Notes: generated by a model not told the origin, from the letters alone. Shown: positions 20,355 through 40,476, counted from the first letter of the stretch. The stretch: DNA of 64,000 nucleotides from Noviherbaspirillum sp. (GCF_035627455.1 NZ_DASPLS010000072.1:32276-96275); one strand, 5' to 3'. Numbers and translations are program-made.

Positions 20355-20364
20355 GGTCGAACAA

Positions 20365-24578: not shown

Positions 24579-25172
24579 ATGGGCAGCGACAACGACACCG
24601 TGAAAGAAAAAACCTTTGGACAGCTCGTGATGGAAGCCCTCGATATCGCTTCGCAGAAAAACGCGTCTTTAGCTGTTCGCTTTGCTTGCCTGGTCTCCGG
24701 CATCGGGAAGAATCAGCTAGCCGGTAATCAACAAGTCGACCAAGTTAGCGGGGCAGGACGCGCGAGAATCCTCGACCTGTGCGAGCGGTTGCGCGTGCCC
24801 ACCGAGTGCAAGGAGCTGGCATTGACCATGGAGCGAGAGCATGCTCAAGTCGATGACAGTCCGAGTTTCAATGCGGAAGAGATAGTAAATTTGCTCGAGC
24901 GGTGTGATGCAATTCGAAAACCTGGCCGGTTTCGCGAGCTCCTGACGGCATGTGAATGCATCGCGCAAGCGTACGATGAAAAAGGAGATTTTCAGTACCA
25001 AGCTTCGCAGCTCTTAAATGCTGCCGCAGACGCAGTTCGCAGAGTTGACACGGGCGCAATCGCAAAGAGAGCTGCCGCAGATGGAATGCAAGGCCCAGAC
25101 ATAGGCAAAGCCGTACACTCCGCCCGAGTGGAAATTCTCAAACAAACCTTACAGCCGGGATCTGGCATCTGA
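24579..25172 (+). CDS. Divergent CCA-enzyme C-terminal domain protein with degenerate HD motif
   Basis: LAVRFACL, LCERLRVPTECKELA, EH, LLERCDAIRKPGRF, DTGAIA, GPDIGKAVHSARV align to the CCA C-half; LTHDLGK is replaced by LVSGIGK. Confidence 0.8.
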   Translation: MGSDNDTVKEKTFGQLVMEALDIASQKNASLAVRFACLVSGIGKNQLAGNQQVDQVSGAGRARILDLCERLRVPTECKELALTMEREHAQVDDSPSFNAEEIVNLLERCDAIRKPGRFRELLTACECIAQAYDEKGDFQYQASQLLNAAADAVRRVDTGAIAKRAAADGMQGPDIGKAVHSARVEILKQTLQPGSGI

Positions 25173-25268
25173 CAAGCTCAAAAGGCTCCGTAACCTTTCT
25201 TCGCTGATGCCGCAGCTACTTTTATAGTCACGCGTCCGTTCGAACTGCAGGACGATTTCATTGCGTCG

Positions 25269-25438
25269 TTTCCGCAGGCGGTGTACCTGCATGGAGCGAT
25301 CGAGGCCGCGCGGGCGGTGAGCGCCGGCGCGATCGCGCAGCGCCTGCGACGGTGCCGAAGCGCATTCCGGAAGCGATCACCGCCGCACGTATCGGCGCTG
25401 TAACTGCTTTTCTGCGACAGCAAAAACACTTTGAGTAA
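25269..25438 (+). pseudogene. cca: Host cca 3' remnant, frameshifted
   Basis: FPQAVYLHGAIEAARAVSAGAIAQRL / shift / VPKRIPEAITAARIGAVTAFLRQQKHFE*; host-like GC. Confidence 0.75.
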
Positions 25439-25597
25439 CAGGATGTCTAGAGAACATTTTCTCTAGGGTAATTCTTTCTTCTTTTCCCGTCTCCCCGTCA
25501 AAAATCCCAGTTTTGCTTGTCAGGAATTCGAGTAACATTCTTGTCAGAAAAACTCTGGGGTGGTGCTGCGAAAAAGTTGCCACCGGGAAAATCAGTC

Positions 25598-27430
25598 ATG
25601 TCCAAACACGCTTCGCTCGTGCATGCACGAGACATGCGCGGGCCCGTCCCGGCGCCGGCGCCGAAACTCGAAGTCGCCGACCTGCTGGTCGCCTATCTCG
25701 AGCAGCTCGGCGTCGATTATGTGTTCGGCGTCCCCGGCGGCGCGATCGAGCCGATCTACAACGCCCTCGCGCGCAGCGCACGGCGCGGCGGTCCCCGTCC
25801 CGTCGTCGCCCGTCATGAAGCGGGCGCTGCGTTCATGGCCGATGGCTACACACGCGAGACCGGCAAGCTCGGCGTCTGCTGCGCAACATCGGGCCCGGGC
25901 GCGACCAACCTGATCACCGGCGTCGCGTGCGCGTACGACAACGGCATCCCGATGCTGGTGCTCACCGGTCAGCCCGTTCTGCCTGCATTCGGCAAGCGCG
26001 CATTGCAGGAATCCGCATGCACCGGCGTCAACACGCTGGCGATGTTCCGCCATTGCACGCGCTACAACTCCCTGGTATCGCATCCCGAGCAGATGGAAGC
26101 GAAGCTGACCGCGGCGCTCATGTGCGCGATGCGCTCGCCGCGCGGCCCGGTGCACCTGTCGATTCCGCTCGACATCCTGCGCAGCGCCGTTCCGCAAAGC
26201 GCGACTTCCTATGACTTGCGCAGGCTGCTGCAGCCGGCCCCGATGATCGACGAGACGGCGGTGGAACTGCTGGCGCGCGAAGTGCGGCAGGCTAAGCACA
26301 TCGTGATGCTGGTCGGCGGCTGGTGCGGCGAGGCCGCGGGCGCCATCCTGCAGTTCGCCGCGCAGACCGGCGCGCGCATTGTCGCCACGCCGGACGGCAA
26401 GGGGCTGGTCAGCCCGCGCCATCCGCTGTTTCGCGGCGTGTTCGGTTTCGCCGGCCACGCCTCCGCCGATGCAGCGCTGCGCGATAAATCTGTCGACCTG
26501 ATCCTGGCCGTCGGCACCAGCATGGGCGAGTGGACCAGCGCCGGCTGGAGCGATTCGCTGCTCAACAGCCGCCTCATTCACATCGACGAGTGCGAAGACC
26601 ATTTCGCGCGCAGCCCGATGGCCAAGCTGCATGTGCGCGGCCGTATCCTGACGGTGTTCGAACGCCTCGGCGAGAGGGTGCGCGAGCTGCAGCCGGCACA
26701 GGGCGCGGCCGCAGCCGCCGGCGAGCAAGACGCCGCCCTCGAAGCGGAACTCGCGGGCGAAGAAAAGCGGGACAGCGACGCCGTGCCCATCCTGCCGCAA
26801 CGGCTCATGCGCGATCTCGGACGCCTGTTTCCGCCAAGCACCCGCTTCCTGGCCGATGCCGGCAACAGCGTCGCCTGGGCGATTCACTGCCTGCGTCCGC
26901 AGGACAGGCGCATGAGCGAGCGGCGTCTGCCCGGCGAGCGCAAGAGCACGTCGGGCCGGCGCAAGACCGACGGCGGCTGGCTGCGCGTGACGATGGATTT
27001 CGCGCCGATGGGGTGGGCCATCGGCGGCGCCGTCGGCACCGCGCTGGGCAATCCCGAGGTGCCGGTGGTCTGCATCACCGGCGACGGCAGCATGCTGATG
27101 AACGGCCAGGAACTCTCGGTTGCCGTTGCCGAAAACCTGACCGTGATCTACATCGTGCTCAACGACGCCGCGCTCGGCATGGTCAAGCACGGCCAGCGCC
27201 TGGCGGGCGCCGAAAGGATCGCGCATAGCTTGCCGCGCACCGACTTCGCCGCACTGGCAAGGGCGCTCGGCGCCGATGCGTTCACCGTGCGCCGCCCGGA
27301 TGAACTCGGCGCGCTCGACATGACGGCCATCTGCAGCCGCAAGGGCCCAACCTTGATCGATGTGCACATCGACGGCGAGGAGGTGCCGCCGATGAATCTG
27401 CGGATGCGGGCGCTGGGGACCTTGTTGTGA
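25598..27430 (+). CDS. Thiamine-diphosphate-dependent enzyme (acetolactate synthase large-subunit fold)
   Basis: VFGVPGG, ARHEAGAAFMADGY, TSGPGATN, ITGDGSMLM..IVLND; no ilvN/H small subunit nearby. Confidence 0.9.
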   Translation: MSKHASLVHARDMRGPVPAPAPKLEVADLLVAYLEQLGVDYVFGVPGGAIEPIYNALARSARRGGPRPVVARHEAGAAFMADGYTRETGKLGVCCATSGPGATNLITGVACAYDNGIPMLVLTGQPVLPAFGKRALQESACTGVNTLAMFRHCTRYNSLVSHPEQMEAKLTAALMCAMRSPRGPVHLSIPLDILRSAVPQSATSYDLRRLLQPAPMIDETAVELLAREVRQAKHIVMLVGGWCGEAAGAILQFAAQTGARIVATPDGKGLVSPRHPLFRGVFGFAGHASADAALRDKSVDLILAVGTSMGEWTSAGWSDSLLNSRLIHIDECEDHFARSPMAKLHVRGRILTVFERLGERVRELQPAQGAAAAAGEQDAALEAELAGEEKRDSDAVPILPQRLMRDLGRLFPPSTRFLADAGNSVAWAIHCLRPQDRRMSERRLPGERKSTSGRRKTDGGWLRVTMDFAPMGWAIGGAVGTALGNPEVPVVCITGDGSMLMNGQELSVAVAENLTVIYIVLNDAALGMVKHGQRLAGAERIAHSLPRTDFAALARALGADAFTVRRPDELGALDMTAICSRKGPTLIDVHIDGEEVPPMNLRMRALGTLL

Positions 27431-28254
27431 CGCACCGGAATGAGAATGTGAGCGATCGGGATCCTTCCCCGGCCATCCGCACCCGCATCTGGCGCGAAGA
27501 ACCGGAGCCGGACAATCCTTTTTCCGCGCGCGCCGCCTATTGCCGCGGCTATGACGTATTCGGCGCGATGGTCGGGCGCGCCCGCTGGATCGAGATGCTG
27601 GTCCTGCTGTTCCGGGATGCACTGCCGCCGGCGGCCGAACTGGACATGCTCGAAGCGCTGTCCGTGGCCCTGGCCAATCCCGGTCCGCGCGATCCGTCGG
27701 TGCATGCCGCAATGTGCGGCGGCGTCGGCGGTTCGAGCGCGGCGGCGTCGCTGATGGCGGCGCTGTCGGTGGGAGCGGGACGCGTCGGCGGCGCGCGCGA
27801 CCTGTTCGACGCGATGCAGGTCTGGTCCGCTTGCGGCAGCGATTTTTCCGCGTGGGACAGGCATGCGGCGGAGCAGCCGAAGCACGCCGGCGTCTGGCCG
27901 GAGACGGAGCACCCGCCCGGATGCGAACCGCATGGCGCCACAACGTCGACCGTCGTCCGGCAGCTGCTTGCCACGCTGGCGCACATCGGCGGCACGCCGC
28001 GGCTGTGCTGGCTGGCCCAACAGCGAGAGGAACAGGAGCGCGCGCTCGGCCGTCCGCTTGCGATCACAGCGGTTGCCGCCGCCGCCTTCTGCGACCTCGG
28101 CTTTGCGCCGGCAGAAGGCGAGATGCTGTTCCTGCTGCTGCGTCTTCCCGGCGCGGCCGCGCATGCGCTGGAGCAGCAGGGCTACGGCTACAAGCGCTTT
28201 CCGTTCTTTCCGGTGGAGCTGGAGGACGACCCGTTGCGAAAGACGCAGGCATGA
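27427..28254 (+). CDS. Citrate synthase / citryl-CoA lyase fold protein 1 (catalytic motifs altered)
   Basis: YCRGYDV, NPGPRDPS, GAGRVGGA, AFCDLGF, LLRLPGAAAHALEQ; start overlaps the upstream stop. Confidence 0.75.
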   Translation: MTHRNENVSDRDPSPAIRTRIWREEPEPDNPFSARAAYCRGYDVFGAMVGRARWIEMLVLLFRDALPPAAELDMLEALSVALANPGPRDPSVHAAMCGGVGGSSAAASLMAALSVGAGRVGGARDLFDAMQVWSACGSDFSAWDRHAAEQPKHAGVWPETEHPPGCEPHGATTSTVVRQLLATLAHIGGTPRLCWLAQQREEQERALGRPLAITAVAAAAFCDLGFAPAEGEMLFLLLRLPGAAAHALEQQGYGYKRFPFFPVELEDDPLRKTQA

Positions 28255-29063
28255 ACGGCCCGGATCTTCTGCAGCAGCACGCCGGCTTGCTGAAGACCCG
28301 GGTCGGCGCCTGCTGGCCGGGCAGCCGCGCGGTATTCCGCGGGCATGACCTGCATGCCGACCTGCATGACATGGACTGGATGGCGTTGTACGTGTTCGGC
28401 ATTACCGGGCGGCGCTTTTCGCCGCAACAGATCCGCCTGATGCATGCGATCTGGACCTATACGAGTTATCCCGATGCGCGGATCTGGAACAACAGGGTGG
28501 CCGCGCTTGCCGGTTCCGCGCGCAGCGCTGCCGCTCTCGGCACGGCCGCCGCGCTCGCCGTGTCCGAAGCATCGATCTACGGCGGCGGCATCCTGGTGCG
28601 CGCCATCGATTTCTTCATCCGTACCCGTGCCAGGCTGGAGGACGGCGCATCGCTCGATGCATGCGTGCGCGAGGAACTCGACACCTTCCGCGTGATTGGC
28701 GGTTACGGCCGGCCGATTGCGTCGGGCGACGAAAGAATCGGGCCGATGCTGAGTCTCGCCGCGGAGCTGGAGCTCGACCAGGGGCCCCATCTGCAGCTGG
28801 CCTTCGCCGTCGAGGATGTGCTGCGCGCCGGCCGCTGGCGCATGAAGATGAACTACGCGGCGCTGGTGGCGGCGCTCGGCGCCGACCTGGGATTGTCGCA
28901 GCGGGAGTTCCAGCTGTACATGTTCCCCGTCTTCCTCGCCGGCATGCAGCCCTGCGTGGCCGAATCGCAGGAACGCCCGGCGGGAACATTGTTTCCGCTG
29001 CGCTGCACCGACATCCTGTACGAGGGACCGGTGGCACGCGCATGGCCGGCGCGCCCGCGGTAA
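28251..29063 (+). CDS. Citrate synthase / citryl-CoA lyase fold protein 2 (catalytic motifs altered)
   Basis: VFRGHDL, IGGYGRP, DERI, MNYAALVAALGADLG; ATGA overlap. Confidence 0.75.
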   Translation: MNGPDLLQQHAGLLKTRVGACWPGSRAVFRGHDLHADLHDMDWMALYVFGITGRRFSPQQIRLMHAIWTYTSYPDARIWNNRVAALAGSARSAAALGTAAALAVSEASIYGGGILVRAIDFFIRTRARLEDGASLDACVREELDTFRVIGGYGRPIASGDERIGPMLSLAAELELDQGPHLQLAFAVEDVLRAGRWRMKMNYAALVAALGADLGLSQREFQLYMFPVFLAGMQPCVAESQERPAGTLFPLRCTDILYEGPVARAWPARPR

Positions 29064-29103
29064 CGGCGGTTTTCACAACAGTCTTTTGACGAGAAACGAC
29101 AAC

Positions 29104-30372
29104 ATGGATAACAGGCCCAGCAGCTTTTACCATCCGCTTCCGACGAAGCTGTTCAACTTCGGCGCGCGCGCGTTGAACGCGGCCGGCATCGGCCGCATCG
29201 CGCTGTCCGAAGATGCGCTGGTCGCCGCCGCCCGGCGCGAGACCGGCCTCGAGCATTTCGGCGACGACAGCCACCTGCCGGGATTGCGCGTGCTGCTGCG
29301 GTCGCTGGAAGCGGAGGCGCGGCTCAACCCCTTTGGCCGTTTCTACGCGAAGACGAACATTGTCGGCTCGCTGAAAAACCGGCTCTGGGCCAATGCCTGC
29401 TTCGAAGCCCATCCCGAAATCCGCAGGCGCAAAATTGTCGCACCGATCGTCATCGTCGGCCCGCATCGCTCCGGCACCACGCGCATGCAAAGGATGATGT
29501 CGGCCGATACCCGCCTGTCGCACCTGAAGACCTGGGAAGGCTTCAATCCGGCGCCGCGGCCGGGCCTGCCCGACATGGGCAGGACGATACGCCGGGAGGA
29601 AGTGCGCAAGGCGCTCGGCGCGGTGGACCGGCTCTATCCGGGCGCATTTGTCGGCCATCCGATGGACGCCGACTGGGCAGAGGAGGAAATGCTTCTGCTT
29701 AACCATTCGTTCTGCAGTTTCTCCATCCTCGGCTCGTACCATGTGCCCGGTTACTTCAACTGGTTCCTGCAGCATGACAAGACCGGGCCGTACCGCTACA
29801 TGGCGGACCTGATGCGTCTGATCTCCTGGTCGCGCGGCGAGCCGGAGGGCACGCGCTGGGTCTTGAAGAACCCGCAGCACATGCTGGATCTGGATGCGTT
29901 GATGGCGGTCTTTCCGGATGCCAAAGTCGTGTTTACCCATCGCGATCCGCTCAAGACCGTGGCGTCGGTCATGTCTCTCATGTGGCATTACGCCGTCCAG
30001 CATACCGACGCCCCCATGCGCGGGCCGATGCGCGACACCTGGATGAGATTCTGCGAGACGGCCGCGCGGCGCTGCATCGAGAAGCGCCACCTGATTCCCG
30101 CGTCACAGCAGCTTGATGTGTATTACGACGATATGAACAGCGACTGGCGCGCGGTCATGCGGCGCGTCTACGACTTCGCCGGCATCGGATTTTCTGCGGA
30201 AGCGGAGCAGGCGCTCGGCGGCTGGCTGGCGCGCAGCGAAAGCGAAAGCAGGCATGGCAGCCATCGCTATTCGCTGGATGATTTCGGCATCACCAGGGAA
30301 GAGGTGGATGCGCGCATGATGTTCGTCCGCCGGGAATATGCGATTCCCTACGAAGGCAGGCGCGCCGCATAA
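29104..30372 (+). CDS. PAPS-dependent sulfotransferase (Sulfotransfer_3 / mycobacterial Stf-like)
   Basis: IVGPHRSGTTRMQ (5'-PSB), WVLKNPQH, FTHRDPLKTVAS (3'-PB), HRYSLDDFG. An alternative TTG start exists at 29086. Confidence 0.88.
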   Translation: MDNRPSSFYHPLPTKLFNFGARALNAAGIGRIALSEDALVAAARRETGLEHFGDDSHLPGLRVLLRSLEAEARLNPFGRFYAKTNIVGSLKNRLWANACFEAHPEIRRRKIVAPIVIVGPHRSGTTRMQRMMSADTRLSHLKTWEGFNPAPRPGLPDMGRTIRREEVRKALGAVDRLYPGAFVGHPMDADWAEEEMLLLNHSFCSFSILGSYHVPGYFNWFLQHDKTGPYRYMADLMRLISWSRGEPEGTRWVLKNPQHMLDLDALMAVFPDAKVVFTHRDPLKTVASVMSLMWHYAVQHTDAPMRGPMRDTWMRFCETAARRCIEKRHLIPASQQLDVYYDDMNSDWRAVMRRVYDFAGIGFSAEAEQALGGWLARSESESRHGSHRYSLDDFGITREEVDARMMFVRREYAIPYEGRRAA

Positions 30373-30390
30373 CACGCAAAGTGAGCATGT

Positions 30391-31047
30391 ATGAACGACG
30401 AGCGAGTGTTTGAGACCGACGCGGCGCCGGACTGCGGGGGGCGCATTGATGTGACCTGGCACCGCAGCGCGGTCGCTGCGGCCGACCGCGCCCGGCTGCT
30501 GGGCCAGGAGCCGGTTACCGTCTGGCTGACCGGCCTGTCCGGTGCCGGCAAGTCGACGATTGCTTTCGAACTCGAGCGGAGACTGATCGCGCAGGGCCGG
30601 CTTGCATTCGTGCTGGACGGCGACAACGTGCGGCACGGATTGAGCCGCGACCTCGGGTTTTCTCCCGAGGACAGGATGGAAAATATCCGGCGGGCCGCTG
30701 AAGTGTCCAAACTCTTTAATGATGCAGGTCTACTAGTGGTTACAGCTTTTATTTCTCCCTATCGTTGCGACAGGGAGCTTGCGCGCGCCGTCATTGGCGC
30801 GGACCGGTTCATTGAGATCCACCTCTGCACCGACCTGCGTGTATGTGAAGAGCGCGATCCGAAGGGACTGTACCAGAAGGTGCGGCGGGGAGCGATCGGC
30901 GGATTCACCGGCGTGTCTGCTCCCTACGAGCCGCCCGAGGCGCCGGCCATGCGCATCGACACGGCGCGTTCGACCGTGGAGGAAAGTGTGGCGGAAATCC
31001 TGCGGAAACTTGCCCCGGGATTGCAACAGAAGCGATACACTTCCTGA
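30391..31047 (+). CDS. cysC: Adenylyl-sulfate (APS) kinase
   Basis: WLTGLSGAGKST, LDGDNVRHGL, DLGFS, RDPKGLY, FTGVSAPYEPP. Confidence 0.95.
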   Translation: MNDERVFETDAAPDCGGRIDVTWHRSAVAAADRARLLGQEPVTVWLTGLSGAGKSTIAFELERRLIAQGRLAFVLDGDNVRHGLSRDLGFSPEDRMENIRRAAEVSKLFNDAGLLVVTAFISPYRCDRELARAVIGADRFIEIHLCTDLRVCEERDPKGLYQKVRRGAIGGFTGVSAPYEPPEAPAMRIDTARSTVEESVAEILRKLAPGLQQKRYTS

Positions 31048-31055
31048 AAATAATA

Positions 31056-33179
31056 ATGCCTGGGAGACATATCGTGCGGCCATCAGGATGCCTGACGCTG
31101 GCCATGGCTTCGGCCTTGGCGTGGTACTCGGCGGGAGCGTATGCCGAGAGCATGGAGGAGGACGATCTCGCGCTGGTCTACGGCGACAAGTCCATGGTCA
31201 GTATCGCCACCGGCAGCCAGCAATCCCTGCGCCGCGCGCCGGCGGTAGCGACGGTGATCACCGCCGACGACATTGCGGCGATGGGCGCCACCGACCTGGA
31301 TGAGGTGCTGGAATCGGTGCCCGGGGTGCACGTGTCCCGCAATCCCATCGTCTACTCGCCGGTTTACGTGATCCGCGGCATCGGTGCCAGCGGTCCGACC
31401 AACCCGCAGGTCCTGCTGCTGCGAAACGGGATCCCGATGACGTCGATGTACACCGGCGACAAGGGTAACATGTGGAGCGGCATGCCCGTCGAGCACATCG
31501 CGCGCATCGAAATCATTCGCGGACCGGGCTCCGCGCTCTATGGCGCGGACGCGTACTCCGGCGTAATCAACATCATCACCAAGAATGCTGCCGAGATCCA
31601 GGGAACGCAGGTCGGCGCCCGCGCCGGCTCGTTCCGGACCGGGGACGCGTGGGTGCAGCATGGCGGGGCGCTGGGGGCGGTGGATGTTTCGGCCTATCTG
31701 CAGGTGGGCAGCACCGCAGGATTCAAGGAAACCATCGCTGCCGATGCGCAGACGCGCAACGACAGGGCCTTCGGTACGAACGCGAGCCTCGCGCCCGGTT
31801 CGATCAACACCGGGCGCGATGCGGTCGACGCCAGCCTCGATTTCGCTTACGGCAAATGGCGGCTGCGCACCCATTATGCGCGGCGCGACAATGTCGGCAC
31901 CGGCGCGGGGGTGTCGTCCGCACTGGACCCGGCCGGCTACGCGAAGAGCCATCGCGCCGGCGGCGACCTGTCCTGGACCGATCCGCAGTTCGCGCAGGAT
32001 TGGGGCGCCGGCCTTACCGCCAGCTATCTCCGTTACGTGGAACTGACGCCCAACCGGCTGACCCTGCTGCCTCCCGGGCTGCGCCTGCCGACCGGCCTGT
32101 TTCCCGAGGGGATGATAGGCGGGCCGAACCGATGGGAACGGCAGTTGCGCCTCGGCGCCTACGCGGTCTACACGGGCTTCGCTGCGCACCAGCTGCGCTT
32201 CGGTGTCGGCCATGATGATCTCGACCTGTACAAGACCACCACCTACAAGAACTTCATGCTGAGCCCGGCCGGCGTGCCGATCCCGACCGGCCCGGTGATC
32301 GAATACTCTGCGCTCCAGCCGCATATCCTGCCCCAAAGGCGCAAGGTGAATTACGTCTACGTGCAGGACGAGTGGAAGTTTACGCGAGACTGGGCGCTGA
32401 CGGCGGGCGTGCGGCATGACCGCTATTCAGATTTTGGCGGCACCACGAATCCTCGTCTTGCGCTCGTATGGGACGCCGCGCTCGACGTCACCACCAAGCT
32501 GCTGTACGGAAGGGCATTCCGCGCACCCTCCTTTAACGAGCAGTACGGGATCAACCCGGTCGCCAACGGCAATCCGGGTCTCCGTCCGGAACTGATCAAC
32601 ACCCTGGAATGGACCGCCTCCTGGCAGGCGCGGCGTGACCTGCAGTTCAATATGACCATCTTCAAGTACGCCATGTCCGACATTATCCGCGCCGTGCCGA
32701 ACGCGGTGGCGGGAACCGGCTCGACCTATACCAATGCCGGCAGCCAGCACGGCAGCGGGCTGGAGCTGGAGCTGGCATGGGATGCTTCGCGCACCCTGCG
32801 CGTCACCGGCAACTACGCATACCAGCGCTCGATCGACGAGGCAACCGGCCAGGACGCCGGATATGCGCCGCGCCAGCAGATTTACGGGCGGGCCGACTGG
32901 CGCTTTGGCGGCGGCTGGATCCTCAGTCCCCAGCTGAACTGGGTGGCAGCCCGGAAAAGGCCGGTGGGCGACCCCCGGCCGGCCGTACGCGATTACACCT
33001 CGGTCGACGTGACGCTGCGTAGCAATCGCGGGCGCGACCAGTGGGATTTTGCATTCTCGGCGCGCAATCTGTTCAACGCGGATATCCGCGAACCCAGCCT
33101 GGCGCCGGGCGTGGCCATCCCGAACGACCTGCCGATGGCCGGGCGGGCGTTCTACCTGCAGGCGGTCTACAGGATGTAG
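31056..33179 (+). CDS. TonB-dependent receptor
   Basis: Plug APAVATVIT, IEIIRGPGSALYG..GVINIIT; beta-barrel; ARNLFN, C-terminal YLQAVYRM. Confidence 0.92.
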   Translation: MPGRHIVRPSGCLTLAMASALAWYSAGAYAESMEEDDLALVYGDKSMVSIATGSQQSLRRAPAVATVITADDIAAMGATDLDEVLESVPGVHVSRNPIVYSPVYVIRGIGASGPTNPQVLLLRNGIPMTSMYTGDKGNMWSGMPVEHIARIEIIRGPGSALYGADAYSGVINIITKNAAEIQGTQVGARAGSFRTGDAWVQHGGALGAVDVSAYLQVGSTAGFKETIAADAQTRNDRAFGTNASLAPGSINTGRDAVDASLDFAYGKWRLRTHYARRDNVGTGAGVSSALDPAGYAKSHRAGGDLSWTDPQFAQDWGAGLTASYLRYVELTPNRLTLLPPGLRLPTGLFPEGMIGGPNRWERQLRLGAYAVYTGFAAHQLRFGVGHDDLDLYKTTTYKNFMLSPAGVPIPTGPVIEYSALQPHILPQRRKVNYVYVQDEWKFTRDWALTAGVRHDRYSDFGGTTNPRLALVWDAALDVTTKLLYGRAFRAPSFNEQYGINPVANGNPGLRPELINTLEWTASWQARRDLQFNMTIFKYAMSDIIRAVPNAVAGTGSTYTNAGSQHGSGLELELAWDASRTLRVTGNYAYQRSIDEATGQDAGYAPRQQIYGRADWRFGGGWILSPQLNWVAARKRPVGDPRPAVRDYTSVDVTLRSNRGRDQWDFAFSARNLFNADIREPSLAPGVAIPNDLPMAGRAFYLQAVYRM

Positions 33180-33334
33180 GCGGCGACGTACGACAAGTGC
33201 CGCTGCCGGGTAGCCGGGTGCGCAGCGGCGGGAATACGGTTTTTCCGGCTGCAAGACAGGGTACGGTTTTTCCCCTCGGTTCTTTTTGGGATATCGTCTG
33301 ATGAATCGGCGTCACAGTTTGCTGCAGTAAGAAA

Positions 33335-34450
33335 ATGGCGGAGGCTAGTTTCCTGATCGGCCGCCGGATGCGGGTAGGCGCGCACGCCTTGGGTTGCGTG
33401 CTGTGCCTGCCGCTGGCATTCGCGCCGGGAGCGGCGCAGGCGGCGTCCGCCGACGCCGATGCCATCCATCAGCAGGGCAGCCCCTTCGAGTCCCGTCGTT
33501 CCGTACGCGGCGCGCGCACCGATCTCTCCCCGATCAGCCTGGCAGAACCGGGTGACGGCGCCAGGCGTGCCGACACGCAGGCCGCCGGCACGCTGGCGGT
33601 GGTCTACCCCGACATCGGCGAGCCCTATCGCAGCGTATTCGCGAAGATCATCGAAGGCATCGAAGACGGTGCCCGCAGCGCGGTGCGCAGTTATCCGATC
33701 GCCGCCAACCAGGATCCGGCCGAGCTCAACGCGCAGCTCAAACGCAACGGCACCAGGGGGGTGATCGCGCTGGGCCGCCAGGGCCTGCGTGCGACAGCGG
33801 GGCTCGACCGCGACATTCCGGTGGTCGTCGGCGGCGTGCTCGCGATCCCGGACGCGGAAAACCGCAGCCTGACCGGCATCAGCCTCACGCCCGATCCGGC
33901 GCTGCTGTTCGCCCGCCTCAAGAGCCTGATGCCGGGCGTAAAACGCGTCATCGTCGTCTACGATCCGCAGCACAACGAATGGCTCATCAGGCTGGCGCGC
34001 GAGGCTGCCAGGACTCAGGGGCTCGAACTCGCCGCACACGAAGCGCGCGACATGAGTACTGCCGCCCGCGCCTATGAAAGCGTGTTTGCCGGCAGCGACA
34101 GCCGCCGCGACGCGGTATGGCTGCCGCAGGACACGACCACCGTCGACGAAAACACCATCCTGCCGCTGGTGCTGAAGGAGTCGTGGAACCGCAGCGTGCC
34201 GGTCTTCTCCAGCAGCTTCGTGCATGTGAAAAAGGGCGCCTTGTTTGCGCTTTATCCGAACAACGTCGAGCTCGGGCGCACGCTGGCCGGTTCCGCGCAA
34301 GCGCTCATGGCGGGTGACGCGCGGCGCCGCGGGCTGGTGCCCCTGCGGGAAGTGCAAACCGCGGTCAACCTGCGCACCGCCAGCCACATCGGCCTGAACA
34401 TCAGCTTTCAGCAGCAACGCAGTTTCGATTTCATCTTTCCGGAGCCCTGA
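33335..34450 (+). CDS. Orphan periplasmic binding protein (ABC_sub_bind-like)
   Basis: Signal region, LTGISLTPDP, VKRVIVVYDP, DAVWLPQD, GALFALYP; no permease or ATPase genes adjacent. Confidence 0.8.
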   Translation: MAEASFLIGRRMRVGAHALGCVLCLPLAFAPGAAQAASADADAIHQQGSPFESRRSVRGARTDLSPISLAEPGDGARRADTQAAGTLAVVYPDIGEPYRSVFAKIIEGIEDGARSAVRSYPIAANQDPAELNAQLKRNGTRGVIALGRQGLRATAGLDRDIPVVVGGVLAIPDAENRSLTGISLTPDPALLFARLKSLMPGVKRVIVVYDPQHNEWLIRLAREAARTQGLELAAHEARDMSTAARAYESVFAGSDSRRDAVWLPQDTTTVDENTILPLVLKESWNRSVPVFSSSFVHVKKGALFALYPNNVELGRTLAGSAQALMAGDARRRGLVPLREVQTAVNLRTASHIGLNISFQQQRSFDFIFPEP

Positions 34451-34556
34451 TGCATAGAGCGAGAGACAACAGGAGCATGCTTGCACCGTTGCGGTACCGT
34501 GCGGCGGCAAGCAAGGCACATGTCGGCCGTGGCGGCCGCCCCACTTTTGTTCGGAC

Positions 34557-37500
34557 ATGATGTTTCGCGATTTCCTCAGCCGCACCGGTTTTCGCCGGCA
34601 GCTCACCGTCGTCGTCAGCGCCGCCATTCTCGGCCTGGCGCTGTTTTCCTCGCTGATGAATTCCTGGGAGGCCAGCCGCCGCATGGAGCGCTATCTCGTC
34701 GAACAGGGGCAGCGCATCAGCGAGAACCTGGCGCTGCAGAGCGTACTCTCCATGCTCTACCATTCGGCCGACAATGCCCGCGACGGCGTCAATACCACGC
34801 TTGCCTTCCCCGATGTGCTGCGCGTCGAACTGATCGACAGCGCGAACCAGGTGCTGTTGTCGCAGGCCAAGCAGGGCGCCGACGCGAGCCGGACCAAACG
34901 CGCCGGCGGCGACGTCTCGCGCGCGACGCTGGTGCACGAGGACAACGACGAATGGCATTTCAAGGCGCCGGTCTACAGCGGCCAGTCCGATACCAATCCG
35001 TTCGATCTCACCGAGCGCAAGCCGGAACTGCTGGGCCATGTCTATGTCGTCATCGGCAAGGGCACCCTGAACCGCCTCGTGACCTCGCTGTTGATCGGCA
35101 ATCTCGCGATCACGCTGTCGTTCGCCGCCGTTCTGCTCGGCATCATGCGGCTTCTGGCACGCCACATGATTCGTCCCCTGAACGCGCTGTCGCGCCTGAT
35201 GGGCCGCGCCGAAGCCGGGGAATCCGGCATGCGGGCCAAGCCCGCCGGTCCGCGCGACATCGTCGATATGGCGCATGCATTCAACAAGATGATGGACGTG
35301 CTGGAGGAGCGCGAGGCCGAACTCAAGAAATCCCGCGACGAAGCGTTGCGTACCGCCCTGATGAAGACCCAGTTCGCCGCTACCGTCAGCCATGAAGTGC
35401 GCACCCCCCTCAACGGCGTTGTCGGCATGCTCGACATGCTCAAGGAAATGCGGCTGACCAAGCGCCAGCAGGAATGCGTGGATGTCGCGTGGAACTCGGC
35501 ACGCGCGCTGATCGAGCTGATCAACGACATTCTCGATTTCTCGAAGATGGAGGCGGGCAAGCTGGAGCTGGACGAGATCGAATTCGACCTGCGCAAGCTG
35601 GTCGAGGAAGTGATCGAACTGCTTGCCAAGCAGGCACAACAGAAAGGGCTCGAGATCGGCTACCTGATCGCGCCGGATGTGCCCGACCGGATCTGCGGCG
35701 ACTCCCTGCGCCTGCGCCAGGTGCTGCTGAACCTGATCGGCAATGCAGTGAAATTCACCGAGCACGGGGAAGTGGCGGTGCGCATCTCGCTCGCGCCCGC
35801 CGCCGAGGGGGGATTCGGGCTGCGTTTCGAGGTGGCGGACACCGGCATCGGCATGAGCGAAGAAGCGGTCCAGCATATCTTTGAATCCTTCGCGCAGGCC
35901 GATCGCTCCACCACGCGCAAGTACGGCGGCACCGGGCTGGGGCTCGCGATCTGCCGGCAGCTGGTGGCGCTGATGCAGGGCGAGATCGCGGTCAGCAGCG
36001 AGCCGGGAAGGGGCAGCGCGTTCTGGTTCACCGTCCTTTGCAGGCGCGCCGGGCAGGCTGCGCCCGTCGAGCGCCGGGCACTGCCGGGCGTGCGCGTCCT
36101 GGTGGTCGACGCGAGCGACATTGTGCGTGCCTTCGTCGAGCAGACGCTCGCGCGCGCCGGCGCATACTGCCTCGCCCTGCCGTCGGGCGCTGCAGTGCCG
36201 GCCGAACTGGCACGCGCGGAGCAGGCCGGTCTGTGCTATGACCTCGTGATCATGGATGTCGATACCGTGGATGAGCGCGGCACCGATCTGGTGCGCCGCA
36301 TTCGGATCGATGCGAGCGCATCGGGCCCGCGCATCCTGGTGCTGGACCGGTATGCGGCGCCGATGGGAAGCAGGTCGCTCGGGGCTGATCTCTATCTGGG
36401 CAAACCGCTGCGCCAGCAGCGCCTGCTGGAAGCGGTGCAGCGCCTGCAGCCGGGCGAGCAGGTGACGGCGGCCGCGGCGTTCGCGCTGCCGCCTCCGGCC
36501 GGCGTGGCGAGCGCGGCCAAGGAGTACCGCGTACTGGTGGCCGAAGACAACCGGACCAACCAGATGGTGGCGGGCGGCATGCTGACGATGAACGGCTGCG
36601 AATGCGAGTTCGCCGCGAACGGACGGGAAGCGGTGGAAGCGGCGCGCCGCACGCGCTTCGACCTGATCCTGATGGATTGCAGCATGCCGGAAATGGACGG
36701 CTACGAGGCGACCGCCCATATCCGCAGTTTCGAAGAGCCGTCCGGCCGCCGGACACCGATTGTCGCGATGACCGCCAATACCCAGCAGGGCGATGCGGAG
36801 AAGTGCCTCGCCGCCGGCATGGACGATTACCTTGCCAAGCCGATCACGCTGGTCGAACTGCGCCACAAGCTCGAGCGCTGGCTGGCGCGCGGCGCGGCGC
36901 AGACCCGGGCGCTGCCGCCCGAAGCCGCCGCGCACGAGGGGGATGGCGGCGCGCTCGACCTGGATGTGTTCGACAAACTGCGCGAGATCCTCGGTCCGGC
37001 ATTGCAGCAGACGGTCACGCCTTTCATCGAAGATACGCCCGGCTATCTGAGCCAGCTCGAGCAGGCGGTGCACGATGGCGACAGCGACACCGCGCGGGCG
37101 ATGGCGCATTCGATCAAGGGCAGCAGCGGCAACCTCGGCGCCAGCACGCTGGCGCAGCTGTCAAAGGAGATCGAAGAGCTGGCGATCGAGCGGCGCACCA
37201 CCGACATCCAGCCGCTGCTCGTACGCCTGCGCCAGGCGTACGAAGCGGTGGCGGTGGTGTTGCGCGGCGAGATGTTCAGCGAGGACAGGTTGAGTGTGCG
37301 CCAGGGCGAGGAAATCGCGCAGGTGCTGGTGGTCGACGATGACCGCAGTACCCGCAGTTCGCTGCGCCATACCTTGCAGCGCGACGGGTTCCGGGTCGAG
37401 GAGGCGGCCGACGGGCTGCAGGCGCTGCAGCTGCTCAAGCGCATGCGTCCCGACGTCATCCTGATGGATGCGGTGATGCCGGTGATGGACGGCTTCACCG

Positions 37501-39029
37501 CCTGTGCGCGGGTACAGGAGCTGCCTAACGGCAGCTCGATCCCGGTCCTGATGATCACCGCGCTGGAGGACAACAACTCCGTCGAGCGTGCGTTCGCCGC
37601 GGGCGCGAGCGACTACATTCCCAAGCCCATCCATTTCGCCGTGCTGTCGCAGCGGGTGCGGCGCATCATCGAGGCCAACCAGGCGGAGAAACGGATCCGC
37701 CATCTCGCCTATAACGACCTGCTCACCGGCTTGCCGAACCGCGCGCTGTTCATGGACCAGCTTGGACGGCGCATCGAGCAGGCGCGAGCCGCCGGCGAAG
37801 CGATCGCGGTGCTGTTCCTCGACCTCGACCGCTTCAAGAACGTCAACGACACGCTCGGCCATGACGTGGGCGACCGCCTGCTGGTCGCGGTCGCGCAGCG
37901 GATCCGGCGCAGCGTGCGCAATGCCGACTGCGTGGCGCGTCTGGGCGGCGACGAATTCACCGTGGTGCTGGCGGAGGTGAACGGACCGAACGCCGCAGTC
38001 AGTGCCGCTCAAAACATCTGCCGTGCGCTGGCCACCCCGTTCCAGATCGACGGCCACGATATCTTCGTCACCACCAGCGTCGGCATCTCCATGTATCCGC
38101 ATGACGCCACCGACGTCGGTACCCTGCTCAAGCATGCCGACACCGCGATGTACCGTGCGAAGCGCACCAACGGCGGATTCCAGTTCTTCGAGGCGTCGAT
38201 GGAACACTCGATTTCGGAGCATGTGCGCATGGAGAGCGACCTGCGCCGGGCGATCGAGCGCAATGAACTGGAAGTGTTCTACCAGCCGCAGGCGCGCGTC
38301 GATAACGGCCAGGTGATCGGCGCCGAGGCGCTGCTGCGCTGGCGCCATCCGACGCGCGGCATGGTTTCTCCGGCGGATTTCATCCCGCTGGCGGAGGAGA
38401 CCGGCCTGATCAACCAGATCGGCGCGTGGGTGCTGCATACGGCCTGCGCCCAGCTGCAGGCCTGGGCGAAGGCCGGCCTGCCGCAGCTTCGGATCGCGGT
38501 CAACCTGTCGGTCAAGCAATTGCTGAAGAAGGACTTCGCGGCCACGGTCGAGCAGGCGCTGGGCGACAGTGGTCTGTCGCCCAGCCTGCTGGAACTGGAA
38601 ATCACTGAAAGCACCTTGATGGAAAACGCACAGGATACGCTGGAAGCGTTGCATCGCCTGCGCAACCTCGGGGTGCGGCTGTCGATCGATGATTTCGGTA
38701 CCGGCTATTCTTCCCTGTCCTACCTGAAGCGCTTCCCGGTCGACATCATCAAGATCGACCGCTCCTTCGTGCGCGACGTGCCCACCGACGCCGACGACGC
38801 ATCGATCGTGACGGGCATCATCGCGCTCGCGCACAGCCTGCGGCTGGAGGTGGTCGCCGAAGGCGTGGAAACCGAGGCGCAGCTGCGCTTCCTGCGCGAA
38901 CAGTCCTGCGACCTGCTGCAGGGGTATTACCTGAGCCAGCCGGTGCCGGCGGAGCAGTTCGAGCGCAACATCCTGAGCAGGGCCGGCGCGCGCTGGGAGG
39001 GAAGGGCAAGGAGTCTGCCGGGGATCTGA
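34557..39029 (+). CDS. Membrane hybrid sensor: HAMP-HisKA-HATPase-REC-REC-HPt-REC-GGDEF-EAL
   Basis: SHEVRTPLNG, NLIGNAVKFT, DTGIGM, GGTGLGL, DLILMDCSMPEMDG, AHSIKGSSGNLG, DVILMDAVMP, RLGGDEF, EALLRW, DDFGTGYSSL. Confidence 0.95.
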   Translation: MMFRDFLSRTGFRRQLTVVVSAAILGLALFSSLMNSWEASRRMERYLVEQGQRISENLALQSVLSMLYHSADNARDGVNTTLAFPDVLRVELIDSANQVLLSQAKQGADASRTKRAGGDVSRATLVHEDNDEWHFKAPVYSGQSDTNPFDLTERKPELLGHVYVVIGKGTLNRLVTSLLIGNLAITLSFAAVLLGIMRLLARHMIRPLNALSRLMGRAEAGESGMRAKPAGPRDIVDMAHAFNKMMDVLEEREAELKKSRDEALRTALMKTQFAATVSHEVRTPLNGVVGMLDMLKEMRLTKRQQECVDVAWNSARALIELINDILDFSKMEAGKLELDEIEFDLRKLVEEVIELLAKQAQQKGLEIGYLIAPDVPDRICGDSLRLRQVLLNLIGNAVKFTEHGEVAVRISLAPAAEGGFGLRFEVADTGIGMSEEAVQHIFESFAQADRSTTRKYGGTGLGLAICRQLVALMQGEIAVSSEPGRGSAFWFTVLCRRAGQAAPVERRALPGVRVLVVDASDIVRAFVEQTLARAGAYCLALPSGAAVPAELARAEQAGLCYDLVIMDVDTVDERGTDLVRRIRIDASASGPRILVLDRYAAPMGSRSLGADLYLGKPLRQQRLLEAVQRLQPGEQVTAAAAFALPPPAGVASAAKEYRVLVAEDNRTNQMVAGGMLTMNGCECEFAANGREAVEAARRTRFDLILMDCSMPEMDGYEATAHIRSFEEPSGRRTPIVAMTANTQQGDAEKCLAAGMDDYLAKPITLVELRHKLERWLARGAAQTRALPPEAAAHEGDGGALDLDVFDKLREILGPALQQTVTPFIEDTPGYLSQLEQAVHDGDSDTARAMAHSIKGSSGNLGASTLAQLSKEIEELAIERRTTDIQPLLVRLRQAYEAVAVVLRGEMFSEDRLSVRQGEEIAQVLVVDDDRSTRSSLRHTLQRDGFRVEEAADGLQALQLLKRMRPDVILMDAVMPVMDGFTACARVQELPNGSSIPVLMITALEDNNSVERAFAAGASDYIPKPIHFAVLSQRVRRIIEANQAEKRIRHLAYNDLLTGLPNRALFMDQLGRRIEQARAAGEAIAVLFLDLDRFKNVNDTLGHDVGDRLLVAVAQRIRRSVRNADCVARLGGDEFTVVLAEVNGPNAAVSAAQNICRALATPFQIDGHDIFVTTSVGISMYPHDATDVGTLLKHADTAMYRAKRTNGGFQFFEASMEHSISEHVRMESDLRRAIERNELEVFYQPQARVDNGQVIGAEALLRWRHPTRGMVSPADFIPLAEETGLINQIGAWVLHTACAQLQAWAKAGLPQLRIAVNLSVKQLLKKDFAATVEQALGDSGLSPSLLELEITESTLMENAQDTLEALHRLRNLGVRLSIDDFGTGYSSLSYLKRFPVDIIKIDRSFVRDVPTDADDASIVTGIIALAHSLRLEVVAEGVETEAQLRFLREQSCDLLQGYYLSQPVPAEQFERNILSRAGARWEGRARSLPGI

Positions 39030-39127
39030 GGCGGCGCCGATCAATGCGGCAGGGCAGGGGGCGGGCCGGCAAGGGCCGGTATGAACGGCCAGCCCCGTCC
39101 CTTGTCCGGAAGCCTGGTCCGACAGCC

Positions 39128-40454: not shown

Positions 40455-40476
40455 ATTGCAGTGAAAGGAGTGCATT

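What the first reader, a model, noticed from the sequence alone, without database searches (positions are those of the whole stretch)
25598..39029. Candidate undescribed make-and-sense system: TPP enzyme, two CS-fold proteins, sulfotransferase and CysC linked to a TonB receptor, binding protein and c-di-GMP phosphorelay
Seen: eight co-directional genes; the first three are translationally coupled (GTGA/ATGA overlaps) and gaps to the receptor are 31 bp or less. Established: ALS-fold TPP enzymes without a small subunit make acyloins in secondary metabolism (e.g. ScyA); CysC supplies PAPS to sulfotransferases; TonB receptors import ligands; GGDEF/EAL domains set c-di-GMP. Inference: the cluster makes a small, possibly sulfated keto-acid-derived molecule that is imported, bound in the periplasm and read by the sensor, i.e. 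a new quorum-sensing-like circuit. I know no characterised pathway with this gene set, but could not search.
Basis: partly seen in the sequence, partly recalled or inferred. Interest (0 to 1): 0.88.

Follow-up and report, generated by a model that had tools for sequence, protein, structure and literature searches.

The report
Sulfating variant of make-and-sense cluster
This eight-gene operon is a sulfate-adding version of a widespread gene module with no description in the papers I could search; it pairs a three-protein enzyme set that probably makes a small molecule with an outer-membrane importer and a periplasmic sensor controlling the biofilm messenger c-di-GMP.

Summary
Eight co-directional genes at 25598-39029 encode a ThDP enzyme, two citryl-CoA-lyase-fold proteins, a sulfotransferase, an APS kinase, a TonB-dependent receptor (TBDR), a PF04392 binding protein (SBP) and a 1490-aa phosphorelay kinase ending in GGDEF-EAL.

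The enzyme and sensory halves co-occur:
- In 41 related genomes, exactly the same 17 carry both the second lyase-fold gene (CCL2) and the SBP.
- In a 401-genome class sample the counts are 37 both, 3 CCL2 only, 13 SBP only, 348 neither.
- The same six-gene core recurs, with shuffled gene order, in Thiogranum, Methylomonas, Nitrosomonadales and Geoanaerobacter.

The sulfotransferase and kinase are not core. They are one of several interchangeable tailoring sets; others are a short-chain dehydrogenase (SDR), a carbamoyltransferase, an O-methyltransferase and an amidotransferase. Anabolic tailoring argues for a small-molecule product.

Both lyase-fold proteins lack the catalytic His-His-Asp. Natural fusions (ThDP enzyme::CCL1, CCL1::CCL2) suggest one complex. 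Within the genus the receptor type follows the tailoring set rather than the sensor.

My searches found no description of the module. Product, secretion and sensing are all inferred. Best reading, about 50%: make, re-import and sense a decorated hydroxy-keto acid.

The parts
25598..27430 (+). ThDP-dependent carboligase-type enzyme (610 aa), ALS fold, no small subunit gene beside it
   Evidence: Pfam TPP_enzyme_N/M/C. It scores below every NCBIfam equivalog cut-off: TIGR00118 297 vs 538, ScyA 243 vs 1020. Best solved relatives are BbmA 8x3x (294 bits) and CsmA 8x3z, against E. coli ALS I at 203 bits. Orthologs at 43-71% identity lie in nearly all related loci.
27427..28254 (+). CCL1: citryl-CoA-lyase-fold protein without the His-His-Asp triad; start overlaps the ThDP gene stop (GTGA)
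   Evidence: NF004864 E 8e-14 but 51 bits vs a cut-off of 261. PDB 6hxp E 1e-8, with triad positions read as H>V, H>P, D>A. Family invariants are E24, N84, G86, R88, H246, E249. A natural ThDP::CCL1 fusion exists, P0129.
28251..29063 (+). CCL2: second citryl-CoA-lyase-fold protein with a rebuilt, Arg-rich conserved site; ATGA overlap with CCL1
   Evidence: 6hxp E 2e-4, with triad positions H>Y110, H>R154, D>A. Invariant across 57 orthologs: R77, W79, N81, Y110, G111, R154, P155, D160, E161, R162, N201, D212, R263. AF2 model (pLDDT 63) gives Foldseek top hits 6hxp, ACLY and citrate synthases. CCL1::CCL2 fusions exist, P0212 and P0239.
29086..30372 (+). Sulfotransferase (428 aa; alternative ATG start at 29104): accessory tailoring enzyme
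   Evidence: PF13469 E 2e-39. Best solved relatives are 2zq5 and 2z6v, E 5e-42 and 6e-39. The motif GPHRSGTT is read from the sequence. Present only in the window and L019-L023, where it sits after the receptor. A separate 32%-identical sulfotransferase lies in the distant locus L070.
30391..31047 (+). APS kinase (CysC), likely PAPS supply for the sulfotransferase
   Evidence: PF01583 E 1e-62; TIGR00455 232 bits vs 138.7. In all six ST-bearing genus loci a CysC gene lies next to the sulfotransferase. The genome encodes CysD elsewhere.
31056..33179 (+). TonB-dependent outer-membrane receptor (707 aa), no N-terminal signalling extension
   Evidence: Plug plus beta-barrel. No close solved relative; only the plug aligns. 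Adjacent to the CCL pair in most loci. Its phylogeny follows the tailoring set, not the sensor.
33335..34450 (+). Periplasmic solute-binding protein (PF04392) with a signal peptide and no permease or ATPase partner
   Evidence: PF04392 E 9e-14. The Sec-type leader ending AQA is read from the sequence. Always next to the sensor gene. Present in exactly the same 17 of 41 relatives as CCL2.
34557..39029 (+). Membrane sensor: sCache_4 periplasmic domain, HAMP, His kinase, REC, REC, Hpt, REC, GGDEF, EAL (1490 aa)
   Evidence: Pfam. Motifs intact: H279 box, N-box, DTGIG, Hpt H851, GGDEF 1130 with RNAD I-site, EAL 1257, DDFGTG, EGVE. The N-terminal sensor part is conserved next to the SBP even where the output differs.
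25173..25597 (.). Upstream intergenic region with a 9-bp-arm palindrome at 25446-25467; role unknown
   Evidence: No Rfam family. No Fur-box-like site: best match has 9 mismatches of 19.

Best explanation
The cluster is a self-contained make, re-import and sense circuit.

Making the molecule (inferred). The ThDP enzyme probably works in one cytoplasmic complex with the CCL1/CCL2 heterodimer. It joins 2-oxo-acid-derived units into a small hydroxy-keto(carboxy) acid. In this genome the sulfotransferase then O-sulfates it, using PAPS from the in-cluster APS kinase. Other lineages reduce, carbamoylate, methylate or amidate it instead.

Sensing it (inferred). The anionic product leaves the cell by an unidentified route. 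The dedicated TonB-dependent receptor pulls it back into the periplasm. There the PF04392 binding protein captures it and docks on the sCache_4 domain of the sensor. The His-Asp-His-Asp relay then sets the terminal REC-GGDEF-EAL module, and so c-di-GMP and the motile/sessile choice.

Shown here: gene content, conservation, co-inheritance of the two halves, variable tailoring, loss of the citrate-synthase triad, natural fusions, intact signalling motifs.

Not shown: the chemistry, the secretion, which protein binds what, and the direction of the c-di-GMP change.
For: 1. Positional linkage. Among 26 related loci with at least 8 kb on both sides of CCL2, 23 have the ThDP gene, 25 CCL1, 21 the TBDR (plus 2 broken copies), 21 the SBP and 21 the sensor. 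Gene order and strand are shuffled. Two apparent exceptions have the sensory triad 14 kb away. The module also occurs in Geoanaerobacter, Methylomonas, Nitrosomonadales and Thiogranum.
2. Phyletic linkage. The same 17 of 41 relatives carry CCL2 and the SBP (Fisher p 7e-12). In the class sample the counts are 37/3/13/348 (p 1e-37, not corrected for phylogeny).
3. Anabolic tailoring genes sit inside clusters: SDR in 11 loci, sulfotransferase in 7, APS kinase in 6, carbamoyltransferase in 2, O-methyltransferase in 1, Asn-synthase-like in 1.
4. No inner-membrane permease is present in the conserved set, so the imported ligand ends in the periplasm.
5. Fusions ThDP::CCL1 and CCL1::CCL2, plus translational coupling.
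6. The ThDP enzyme is closest to BbmA and CsmA, not ALS. The BbmA family includes Thermosporothrix homologs.
7. In the genus, TBDR clade A holds all SDR-type loci and clade B all sulfotransferase-type loci. The window's sensor and SBP group with SDR-type loci, but its TBDR does not (AU p 2e-42).
8. Neighbours are often chemosensory or flagellar genes.
Against: - No product, export route or ligand is known, and no exporter recurs near the module.
- A TonB-dependent receptor is unusual for a small autoinducer and typical of chelates or scarce nutrients.
- The CCL pair lacks the known catalytic residues, so it may not be enzymatic.
- The SBP does not co-vary with the tailoring set as the receptor does. 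That fits poorly if the SBP reads the decorated part.
- The receptor/tailoring co-variation could reflect mere adjacency in one recombined block. The tested groups were named after seeing the trees.
- Clade-B receptors also occur without a sulfotransferase (L025).
- Some genomes have only the sensory triad (L071) or only the enzymes plus receptor (L051).
Confidence: 0.5

Rival explanations
1. Metallophore circuit. The enzymes make a small hydroxy-carboxylate chelator. The receptor imports the metal-loaded form. The SBP-sensor pair reports metal availability rather than cell density.
For: TonB-dependent receptors are the standard route for metal chelates. CCL2 keeps an Arg-rich site at the citrate-synthase substrate position, suggesting a polycarboxylate. 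Named carriers include Gallionella, Nitrosomonadales, Geoanaerobacter, Desulfuromonadaceae and Thiogranum, which from my own knowledge live at redox or metal interfaces.
Against: No Fur-box-like site lies upstream of the operon here or in 13 genus orthologs. There is no NRPS or NIS synthetase, no inner-membrane uptake system and no reductase. The output is c-di-GMP or chemosensory rather than transcriptional control of uptake.
Confidence: 0.2
2. Sense-and-respond to a foreign compound. The receptor, SBP and sensor detect an exogenous molecule. The co-transcribed enzymes make an intracellular or secreted response product that is not the sensed ligand.
For: Sensory triads exist without the enzymes (L071, L072, L080). 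The SBP and sensor phylogeny is uncoupled from the tailoring set.
Against: It does not explain why the receptor type follows the tailoring genes, nor why presence and absence match exactly in the genus. Orphan receivers are equally expected for shared signals or pirated chelators.
Confidence: 0.13
3. Uptake and catabolism. The receptor imports a scarce substrate, the sensor detects it, and the ThDP/CCL enzymes degrade it.
For: ThDP enzymes and citryl-CoA lyases also act in cleavage reactions. TBDR-plus-periplasmic-sensor logic is known from polysaccharide utilisation loci (my own knowledge).
Against: No inner-membrane transporter is present in the conserved set. Sulfotransferase plus APS kinase, carbamoyltransferase, O-methyltransferase and amidotransferase are anabolic. 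The CCL catalytic triad is absent.
Confidence: 0.1
4. The two halves are unrelated neighbours that happen to share an operon.
For: None beyond the lack of direct functional data.
Against: They co-occur across orders and phyla with rearranged gene order, and presence and absence match.
Confidence: 0.02

Closest known systems
ScrABC of Vibrio parahaemolyticus, NspS-MbaA of V. cholerae, LuxS/LuxP-LuxQ (from my own knowledge)
   Same: A periplasmic binding protein with no transporter partners a membrane sensor, which is GGDEF-EAL in ScrC and MbaA and a hybrid kinase in LuxQ. In ScrABC the signal synthase is in the same operon. The output is c-di-GMP or a phosphorelay.
   Different: The synthase type differs: a ThDP enzyme plus a degenerate CCL pair instead of an aminotransferase or LuxS. 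The SBP family differs (PF04392). A TonB-dependent receptor sits in the loop, and tailoring sets are interchangeable. No sequence relationship of the synthase was found. Physical SBP-sensor contact was not tested.
Citryl-CoA lyase of Hydrogenobacter thermophilus (PDB 6hxp) and the CCL module of ATP-citrate lyase
   Same: Same fold and size. These are the only sequence and fold matches for CCL1 and CCL2.
   Different: The catalytic His, His and Asp are replaced in both proteins. Scores are far below family cut-offs. The proteins form a heteromeric pair tied to a ThDP enzyme, and no CoA ligase is nearby.
BbmA and CsmA (PDB 8x3x, 8x3z), and the acyloin-forming ThDP enzymes of secondary metabolism such as Thermosporothrix Thzk0150 and ScyA (the last three named from memory)
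   Same: Stand-alone ALS-fold ThDP enzyme with no regulatory subunit. About 40% identity to BbmA by my reading of the printed alignment, with a better score than any ALS.
   Different: The BbmA-type gene sits beside a KAS III-like gene, with no CCL pair, receptor or sensor. The ScyA models score 243-250 bits against cut-offs of 1000 or more. I could not find the BbmA paper in the library.
SusC-type TonB transporters feeding periplasmic hybrid two-component sensors in Bacteroides polysaccharide utilisation loci (from my own knowledge)
   Same: TonB-dependent import delivers the ligand to a periplasmic sensor domain.
   Different: Those systems sense imported nutrients and control transcription of catabolic genes. 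Here there is no SusD, no glycosidases and no permease, and the partner genes are biosynthetic.
Siderophore clusters with a cognate TonB receptor (for example Fec, and pyoverdine-type surface signalling)
   Same: Biosynthesis genes are linked to a cognate outer-membrane receptor. Receptor type co-varies with product variant.
   Different: No Fur box, no NRPS or NIS enzymes, no inner-membrane uptake, no ECF sigma/anti-sigma, and no N-terminal signalling domain on the receptor.

Membership tests
Citrate synthase / citryl-CoA lyase (catalytically active members) | Citrate-synthase fold | tested here: met
   NCBIfam CCL models E 8e-14 and 4e-10. PDB 6hxp E 1e-8 and 2e-4. For the CCL2 model all 50 top Foldseek matches listed are CCL, ACLY or (methyl)citrate synthase structures, TM about 0.5 on a low-confidence model.
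Citrate synthase / citryl-CoA lyase (catalytically active members) | Catalytic His-His-Asp triad | tested here: not met
   Alignment to 6hxp: CCL1 V/P/A and CCL2 Y/R/A at the three positions. The substitutes Y110 and R154 are invariant in 57 CCL2 orthologs.
Citrate synthase / citryl-CoA lyase (catalytically active members) | Score above the curated family cut-off | tested here: not met
   51 and 39 bits against 261 for NF004864. Pfam Citrate_synt gives 15.6 against 27, or no hit.
Biosynthetic acetolactate synthase large subunit | Three ThDP-enzyme domains, activating Glu and GDG...N motif | tested here: met
   Pfam N/M/C domains. 'RHEAGAAF' and 'GDGSMLMNG...LND' are read from the sequence.
Biosynthetic acetolactate synthase large subunit | Equivalog score, and an adjacent regulatory small subunit | tested here: not met
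   TIGR00118 297 bits against 538. No ACT-domain small subunit gene in the operon.
ScyA / ScyA-related ThDP enzymes | NCBIfam NF035923 / NF035927 cut-off | tested here: not met
   243 and 250 bits against 1020 and 1000.
Binding-protein-dependent membrane sensors (LuxPQ, TorTS, NspS-MbaA, ScrBC type) | Secreted SBP encoded next to a sensor with a periplasmic domain, with no cognate permease or ATPase | tested here: met
   PF04392 protein with a signal peptide beside the sCache_4-HAMP sensor in the window and in nearly all related loci; no BPD_transp or ABC_tran gene in the conserved set.
Binding-protein-dependent membrane sensors (LuxPQ, TorTS, NspS-MbaA, ScrBC type) | Ligand-dependent physical contact between the SBP and the sensor | not testable with these tools
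   Needs pull-down, ITC or a multimer structure prediction, none of which is offered here.
Quorum-sensing-type autoinducer circuit | Synthase and receptor genes co-inherited | tested here: met
Quorum-sensing-type autoinducer circuit | Product is released, accumulates with density and triggers the sensor | not testable with these tools
   Needs metabolite and reporter experiments.
Siderophore / metallophore cluster | Metal-responsive operator (Fur box) upstream | tested here: not met
   Best match to the 19-bp Fur consensus has 7-10 mismatches in the window and 13 genus orthologs. Only the E. coli-type consensus was tried.
Siderophore / metallophore cluster | Inner-membrane uptake system and NRPS or NIS synthetase | tested here: not met
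   None in the window cluster or recurrent in flanks.
APS kinase (CysC) | TIGR00455 / PF01583 above cut-off | tested here: met
   232 bits against 138.7; 211 bits against 21.
PAPS-dependent sulfotransferase (Sulfotransfer_3) | Pfam score and a 5'-phosphosulfate-binding loop | tested here: met
   136 bits against 27. 'GPHRSGTT' is read from the sequence. Solved relatives 2zq5 and 2z6v. The acceptor substrate was not tested.
GGDEF-EAL c-di-GMP enzymes | Intact GGDEF with I-site; EAL, DDFGTG and EGVE motifs | tested here: met
   Enzymatic activity was not tested.

The most novel reading that the evidence does not exclude
A previously unrecognised, widespread family of chemically diversified extracellular signals: hydroxy-keto acids that are sulfated, carbamoylated, methylated, amidated or reduced depending on lineage. 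They would be made by a new enzyme machine, a ThDP carboligase bound to a catalytically rebuilt citrate-synthase-fold heterodimer. Reception would be gated by a dedicated TonB-dependent receptor, and a binding-protein/kinase pair in the periplasm would read the signal to set c-di-GMP. In short, a TonB-gated quorum-sensing-like system with 'dialects' defined by tailoring and receptor type.
Probability: 0.4. Interest if true: 0.9.

Novelty: new variant of a known kind. Interest (0 to 1): 0.78.

Why it matters
If the reading is right, about a tenth of sampled genomes in this class carry a signalling system that nobody has characterised; carriers include iron-, sulfur-, methane- and nitrogen-cycling bacteria. 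It would link a new small-molecule family to biofilm and motility control.

It would add a third role for TonB-dependent receptors beside nutrient uptake and sigma-factor signalling: gating access of a self-made signal to a periplasmic sensor.

It would also assign a function to a citrate-synthase-fold pair that has lost the textbook active site.

The sulfating variant in this window is practically useful. A sulfate ester gives a mass-spectrometric handle (loss of 80 Da, m/z 97) and a 35S label for finding the unknown product.

Tried and rejected
- Rfam scan of 23000-41000 at E up to 1: no family, so no riboswitch or leader found.
- Promoter and terminator scan: not above shuffled expectation. 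Only a palindrome at 25446-25467.
- Fur box search upstream of the ThDP gene in 14 loci: nothing.
- Literature: nine full-text searches on combinations of citryl-CoA lyase, ThDP, TonB receptor, sulfotransferase, PF04392, sCache_4/DUF2222, COG2984 and BbmA/CsmA found no description of the module. Apparent hits in Caulobacter and Cupriavidus papers were unrelated.
- BbmA lead: I rebuilt its sequence from the PDB alignment and traced it to Brevibacillus. Its gene context has a KAS III-like gene and no CCL, receptor or sensor, so it is not this module.
- The 197-aa ORF upstream (24579-25172) is not part of the cluster. It is a CCA-adding-enzyme C-terminal half. In relatives a full-length cca gene sits there, so this is synteny only.
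- The RND pump at 19146-23469 as exporter: rejected. It lies in a low-GC insert absent from the relatives I checked, and no exporter recurs in other loci.
- The AF2 monomer of CCL2 was poor (pLDDT 63), adequate for fold assignment only.

Full report
**1. What is there**

Between 25598 and 39029 the + strand carries eight ORFs. Pfam and NCBIfam assign them as follows:
- An ALS-fold ThDP enzyme of 610 aa.
- Two proteins of about 270 aa that match only citryl-CoA lyase, and only weakly. I call them CCL1 and CCL2.
- A Sulfotransfer_3 protein.
- An APS kinase.
- A plug-plus-barrel TonB-dependent receptor (TBDR).
- A PF04392 solute-binding protein (SBP) with a Sec leader.
- A 1490-aa membrane sensor: sCache_4-HAMP-HisKA-HATPase-REC-REC-Hpt-REC-GGDEF-EAL.

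All signalling motifs in the sensor are intact, including the H-box, Hpt His, GGDEF with an RNAD I-site, EAL, DDFGTG and EGVE.

The first three genes overlap by GTGA and ATGA. Gaps up to the receptor are 8-22 bp, or 40 bp if the sulfotransferase starts at the ATG at 29104.

**2. The two halves belong together**

They do co-occur.

*Close relatives.* CCL2 is found in 17 of 41 related genomes: 16 of 24 in the genus, which source names suggest is Noviherbaspirillum, plus one other genus of the order. The SBP ortholog is found in exactly the same 17 and in none of the other 24. Fisher p is 7e-12, not corrected for phylogeny.

*Class sample.* In an even sample of 401 genomes of the class, 40 have CCL2 and 50 have the SBP. 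The counts are 37 both, 3 CCL2 only, 13 SBP only and 348 neither.

*Position.* I fetched 20-kb stretches around the matches and mapped all eight proteins. Among the 26 loci with at least 8 kb on both sides of CCL2:
- 23 have the ThDP gene and 25 have CCL1.
- 21 have an intact TBDR. Two more have a broken one; in L054 an integrase-family (rve) gene lies between the two receptor fragments.
- 21 have the SBP and 21 have a sensor whose N-terminal part is homologous to this one.

Two 'enzyme-only' loci (L052, L053) turned out to have the TBDR-SBP-sensor triad 14 kb away on the same contig.

*Distant lineages.* Gene order is not fixed. The receptor lies before or after the CCL pair, and the SBP-sensor pair is co-directional or divergent. 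The same set appears in a Thiogranum MAG, Geoanaerobacter pelophilus, a Methylomonas MAG and a Nitrosomonadales MAG.

The sensor output varies: the full phosphorelay-GGDEF-EAL, a kinase-REC, or HAMP-PAS-GGDEF-EAL. The SBP plus periplasmic-domain pairing persists throughout. Linkage that survives rearrangement across phyla indicates a functional unit.

**3. The sulfation genes are an accessory**

The sulfotransferase and CysC occur in the window and in five other genus loci (L019-L023). There they sit after the receptor, not before it. A separate sulfotransferase, 32% identical, follows CCL2 in a distant locus (L070).

Other clusters carry other tailoring genes in the same positions:
- A short-chain dehydrogenase (SDR) between the ThDP gene and CCL1, in 11 loci.
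- A carbamoyltransferase, in 2 loci.
- An O-methyltransferase, in 1 locus.
- An asparagine-synthase-like amidotransferase, in 1 locus.

These enzymes are anabolic. Taken together they imply a product with a hydroxyl, a carbonyl and a carboxyl group. That fits the acyloin or alpha-hydroxy-beta-keto-acid products of ThDP carboligases; this step is inference from established ThDP chemistry.

The genome has CysD elsewhere, so APS is available. Two partial APS-kinase matches on other contigs mean the in-cluster CysC may not be the only copy.

**4. The enzyme trio**

*ThDP enzyme.* It fails every NCBIfam equivalog cut-off, including ALS and ScyA. Its best solved relatives are BbmA and CsmA at 294 and 247 bits, against 203 for E. 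coli ALS I.

I traced BbmA to Brevibacillus. Its family includes Thermosporothrix homologs, which I recall as acyloin synthases. Its gene context has a KAS III-like gene and none of the present partners.

*CCL1 and CCL2.* Both have the citrate-synthase fold. Aligned to 6hxp, the catalytic His, His and Asp read V/P/A in CCL1 and Y/R/A in CCL2.

Across 57 orthologs CCL2 keeps an invariant polar set at those places: R77, W79, N81, Y110, R154, D160-E161-R162, N201, D212 and R263. CCL1 keeps fewer: E24, N84, R88, H246 and E249. I read this as a rebuilt site, not a decayed one.

*One complex?* The representative library holds a natural ThDP::CCL1 fusion (P0129, 885 aa, with about 30 residues, by my reading of its sequence, joining the two parts). 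It also holds two CCL1::CCL2 fusions (P0212, P0239). With the translational coupling, this suggests one complex.

**5. Receptor type follows tailoring type**

In the genus the SDR-type and sulfotransferase-type loci are mutually exclusive.

The TBDR tree has two deep, fully supported clades:
- One holds all SDR-type loci. It also holds L014, whose SDR region lies off the fetched stretch, and L017, which has no SDR.
- The other holds all six sulfotransferase-type loci, plus L025 and a Nitrosomonadales receptor.

The sensor and SBP trees place the window with the SDR-type loci L013 and L014 (SH-aLRT 97 and 93). Forcing that grouping on the TBDR costs 350 log-likelihood units (AU p 2e-42). CCL1 behaves like the TBDR, and CCL2 like the sensor.

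So the window's cluster is a mosaic in which receptor and tailoring genes share a history. This is what one expects if the receptor recognises the decorated product.

Three cautions apply. The groups were named after seeing the trees. It is essentially one informative event. Simple adjacency of ST, CysC and TBDR in one recombined block would give the same tree.

**6. Surroundings**

- No Rfam family lies in or near the operon.
- There is no Fur-box-like site and no recurrent exporter.
- In about ten non-genus loci the module is flanked by chemosensory genes: MCP, CheW, CheR, CheD, CheB and a REC-PP2C protein.
- Flagellar rod and hook genes follow it in Methylomonas, and an MCP lies two genes from the receptor in Geoanaerobacter.
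- These neighbours point to control of behaviour rather than nutrition.
- In this genome the upstream 197-aa ORF is a CCA-enzyme C-terminal half. Relatives have a full-length cca gene there. The RND pump further upstream lies in a low-GC insert. Neither belongs to the cluster.

**7. Explanation and rivals**

*Best reading (about 0.5).* The trio makes a small hydroxy-keto acid, which is sulfated here. It leaves the cell and is pumped back into the periplasm by the dedicated receptor. The orphan SBP binds it and the sensor reads it, setting c-di-GMP. A sulfated or polycarboxylate anion at low concentration would plausibly need active outer-membrane transport.

*Rivals.*
- A metallophore whose loaded form is sensed (0.2).
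- Sensing of a foreign compound, with the enzymes as co-expressed response (0.13).
- Uptake and catabolism (0.1). The lack of a permease and the anabolic tailoring count against it.
- Chance adjacency (0.02).

Orphan sensory triads (L071 and others) fit eavesdropping on a shared signal, chelator piracy, or sensing of a foreign compound, so they do not separate those readings.

**8. Known or new**

Nine full-text searches found no description of this gene set. The library lacks most subscription papers, so this is not proof of absence.

Earlier agents of this scan reached a similar 'undescribed conserved module' view for homologous clusters in other genomes. I treated those notes as leads and re-derived the points here.

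- The tailoring census, which identifies sulfation as one variant among several.
- The exact match of presence and absence in the genus.
- The mosaic history linking receptor and tailoring genes.
- The chemosensory neighbourhoods.
- The orphan sensory triads.
- The BbmA trace.

In kind the system resembles binding-protein-dependent signal circuits such as ScrABC, NspS-MbaA and LuxPQ. Three things set it apart: a new synthase machine, a TonB receptor in the loop, and modular product 'dialects'. I therefore class it as a new variant of a known kind, with high interest.

Noticed in passing
window 24579-25172 (+), and L017, L021-L023 upstream of the ThDP gene: The 197-aa ORF matches only the C-terminal half of the CCA-adding enzyme (NF008137, model positions 229-404 of 409). 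In relatives a full-length cca gene (about 410 aa, starting [12 protein letters not shown]) occupies this position directly upstream of the cluster. The window therefore seems to have a rearranged or split cca next to a low-GC insert.
   Followed up: partly
window about 14000-26000: GC is 0.57-0.60, against 0.64-0.69 on both sides. The stretch carries an HlyD/CusB-like plus AcrB-family RND pump (19146-23469) and a DsbD_N protein (23965-24462). It looks like an inserted metal-resistance island between cca and the cluster.
   Followed up: partly
window 25446-25467: Perfect 9-bp-arm palindrome TCTAGAGAA-CATT-TTCTCTAGG, about 130 bp upstream of the ThDP start. It could be an operator or a terminator. 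Conservation in orthologous loci was not examined.
   Followed up: no
window 27427-28254, CCL1 residue 166: The window's CCL1 has Cys (PPGCEPH) where 98% of 54 orthologs have Phe in the near-invariant P-G-F motif.
   Followed up: no
G000 contigs C21:40603-40944 and C59:161249-161497: Two partial APS-kinase matches (model positions 38-152 and 2-84) lie on other contigs of the same genome. They may be a second cysC or a cysNC split by the assembly.
   Followed up: no
L054 11454-12425: An integrase-family (rve) transposase gene lies between the plug-bearing and barrel-bearing fragments of the TonB receptor in this locus (G403). The rest of the module there is intact.
   Followed up: no
L071 (G342), L072 (G364), L080 (G329): TBDR-sensor-SBP or SBP-sensor sets occur with no ThDP or CCL genes within 10 kb. 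No CCL2 is found genome-wide at E 1e-20. These are possible 'receiver-only' genomes.
   Followed up: partly
L076 8222-10442, L079 12574-13515: Between the receptor and the ThDP gene these variant loci have gaps of 2.2 kb and 0.9 kb where the CCL pair would be, but my queries do not match there. They may hold very divergent or different partner genes.
   Followed up: no
L086, L087 (BbmA-like ThDP genes in Elusimicrobia and a proteobacterial MAG): Stand-alone BbmA-family ThDP enzymes also sit directly beside large sensor kinases or response regulators. This may be chance.
   Followed up: no
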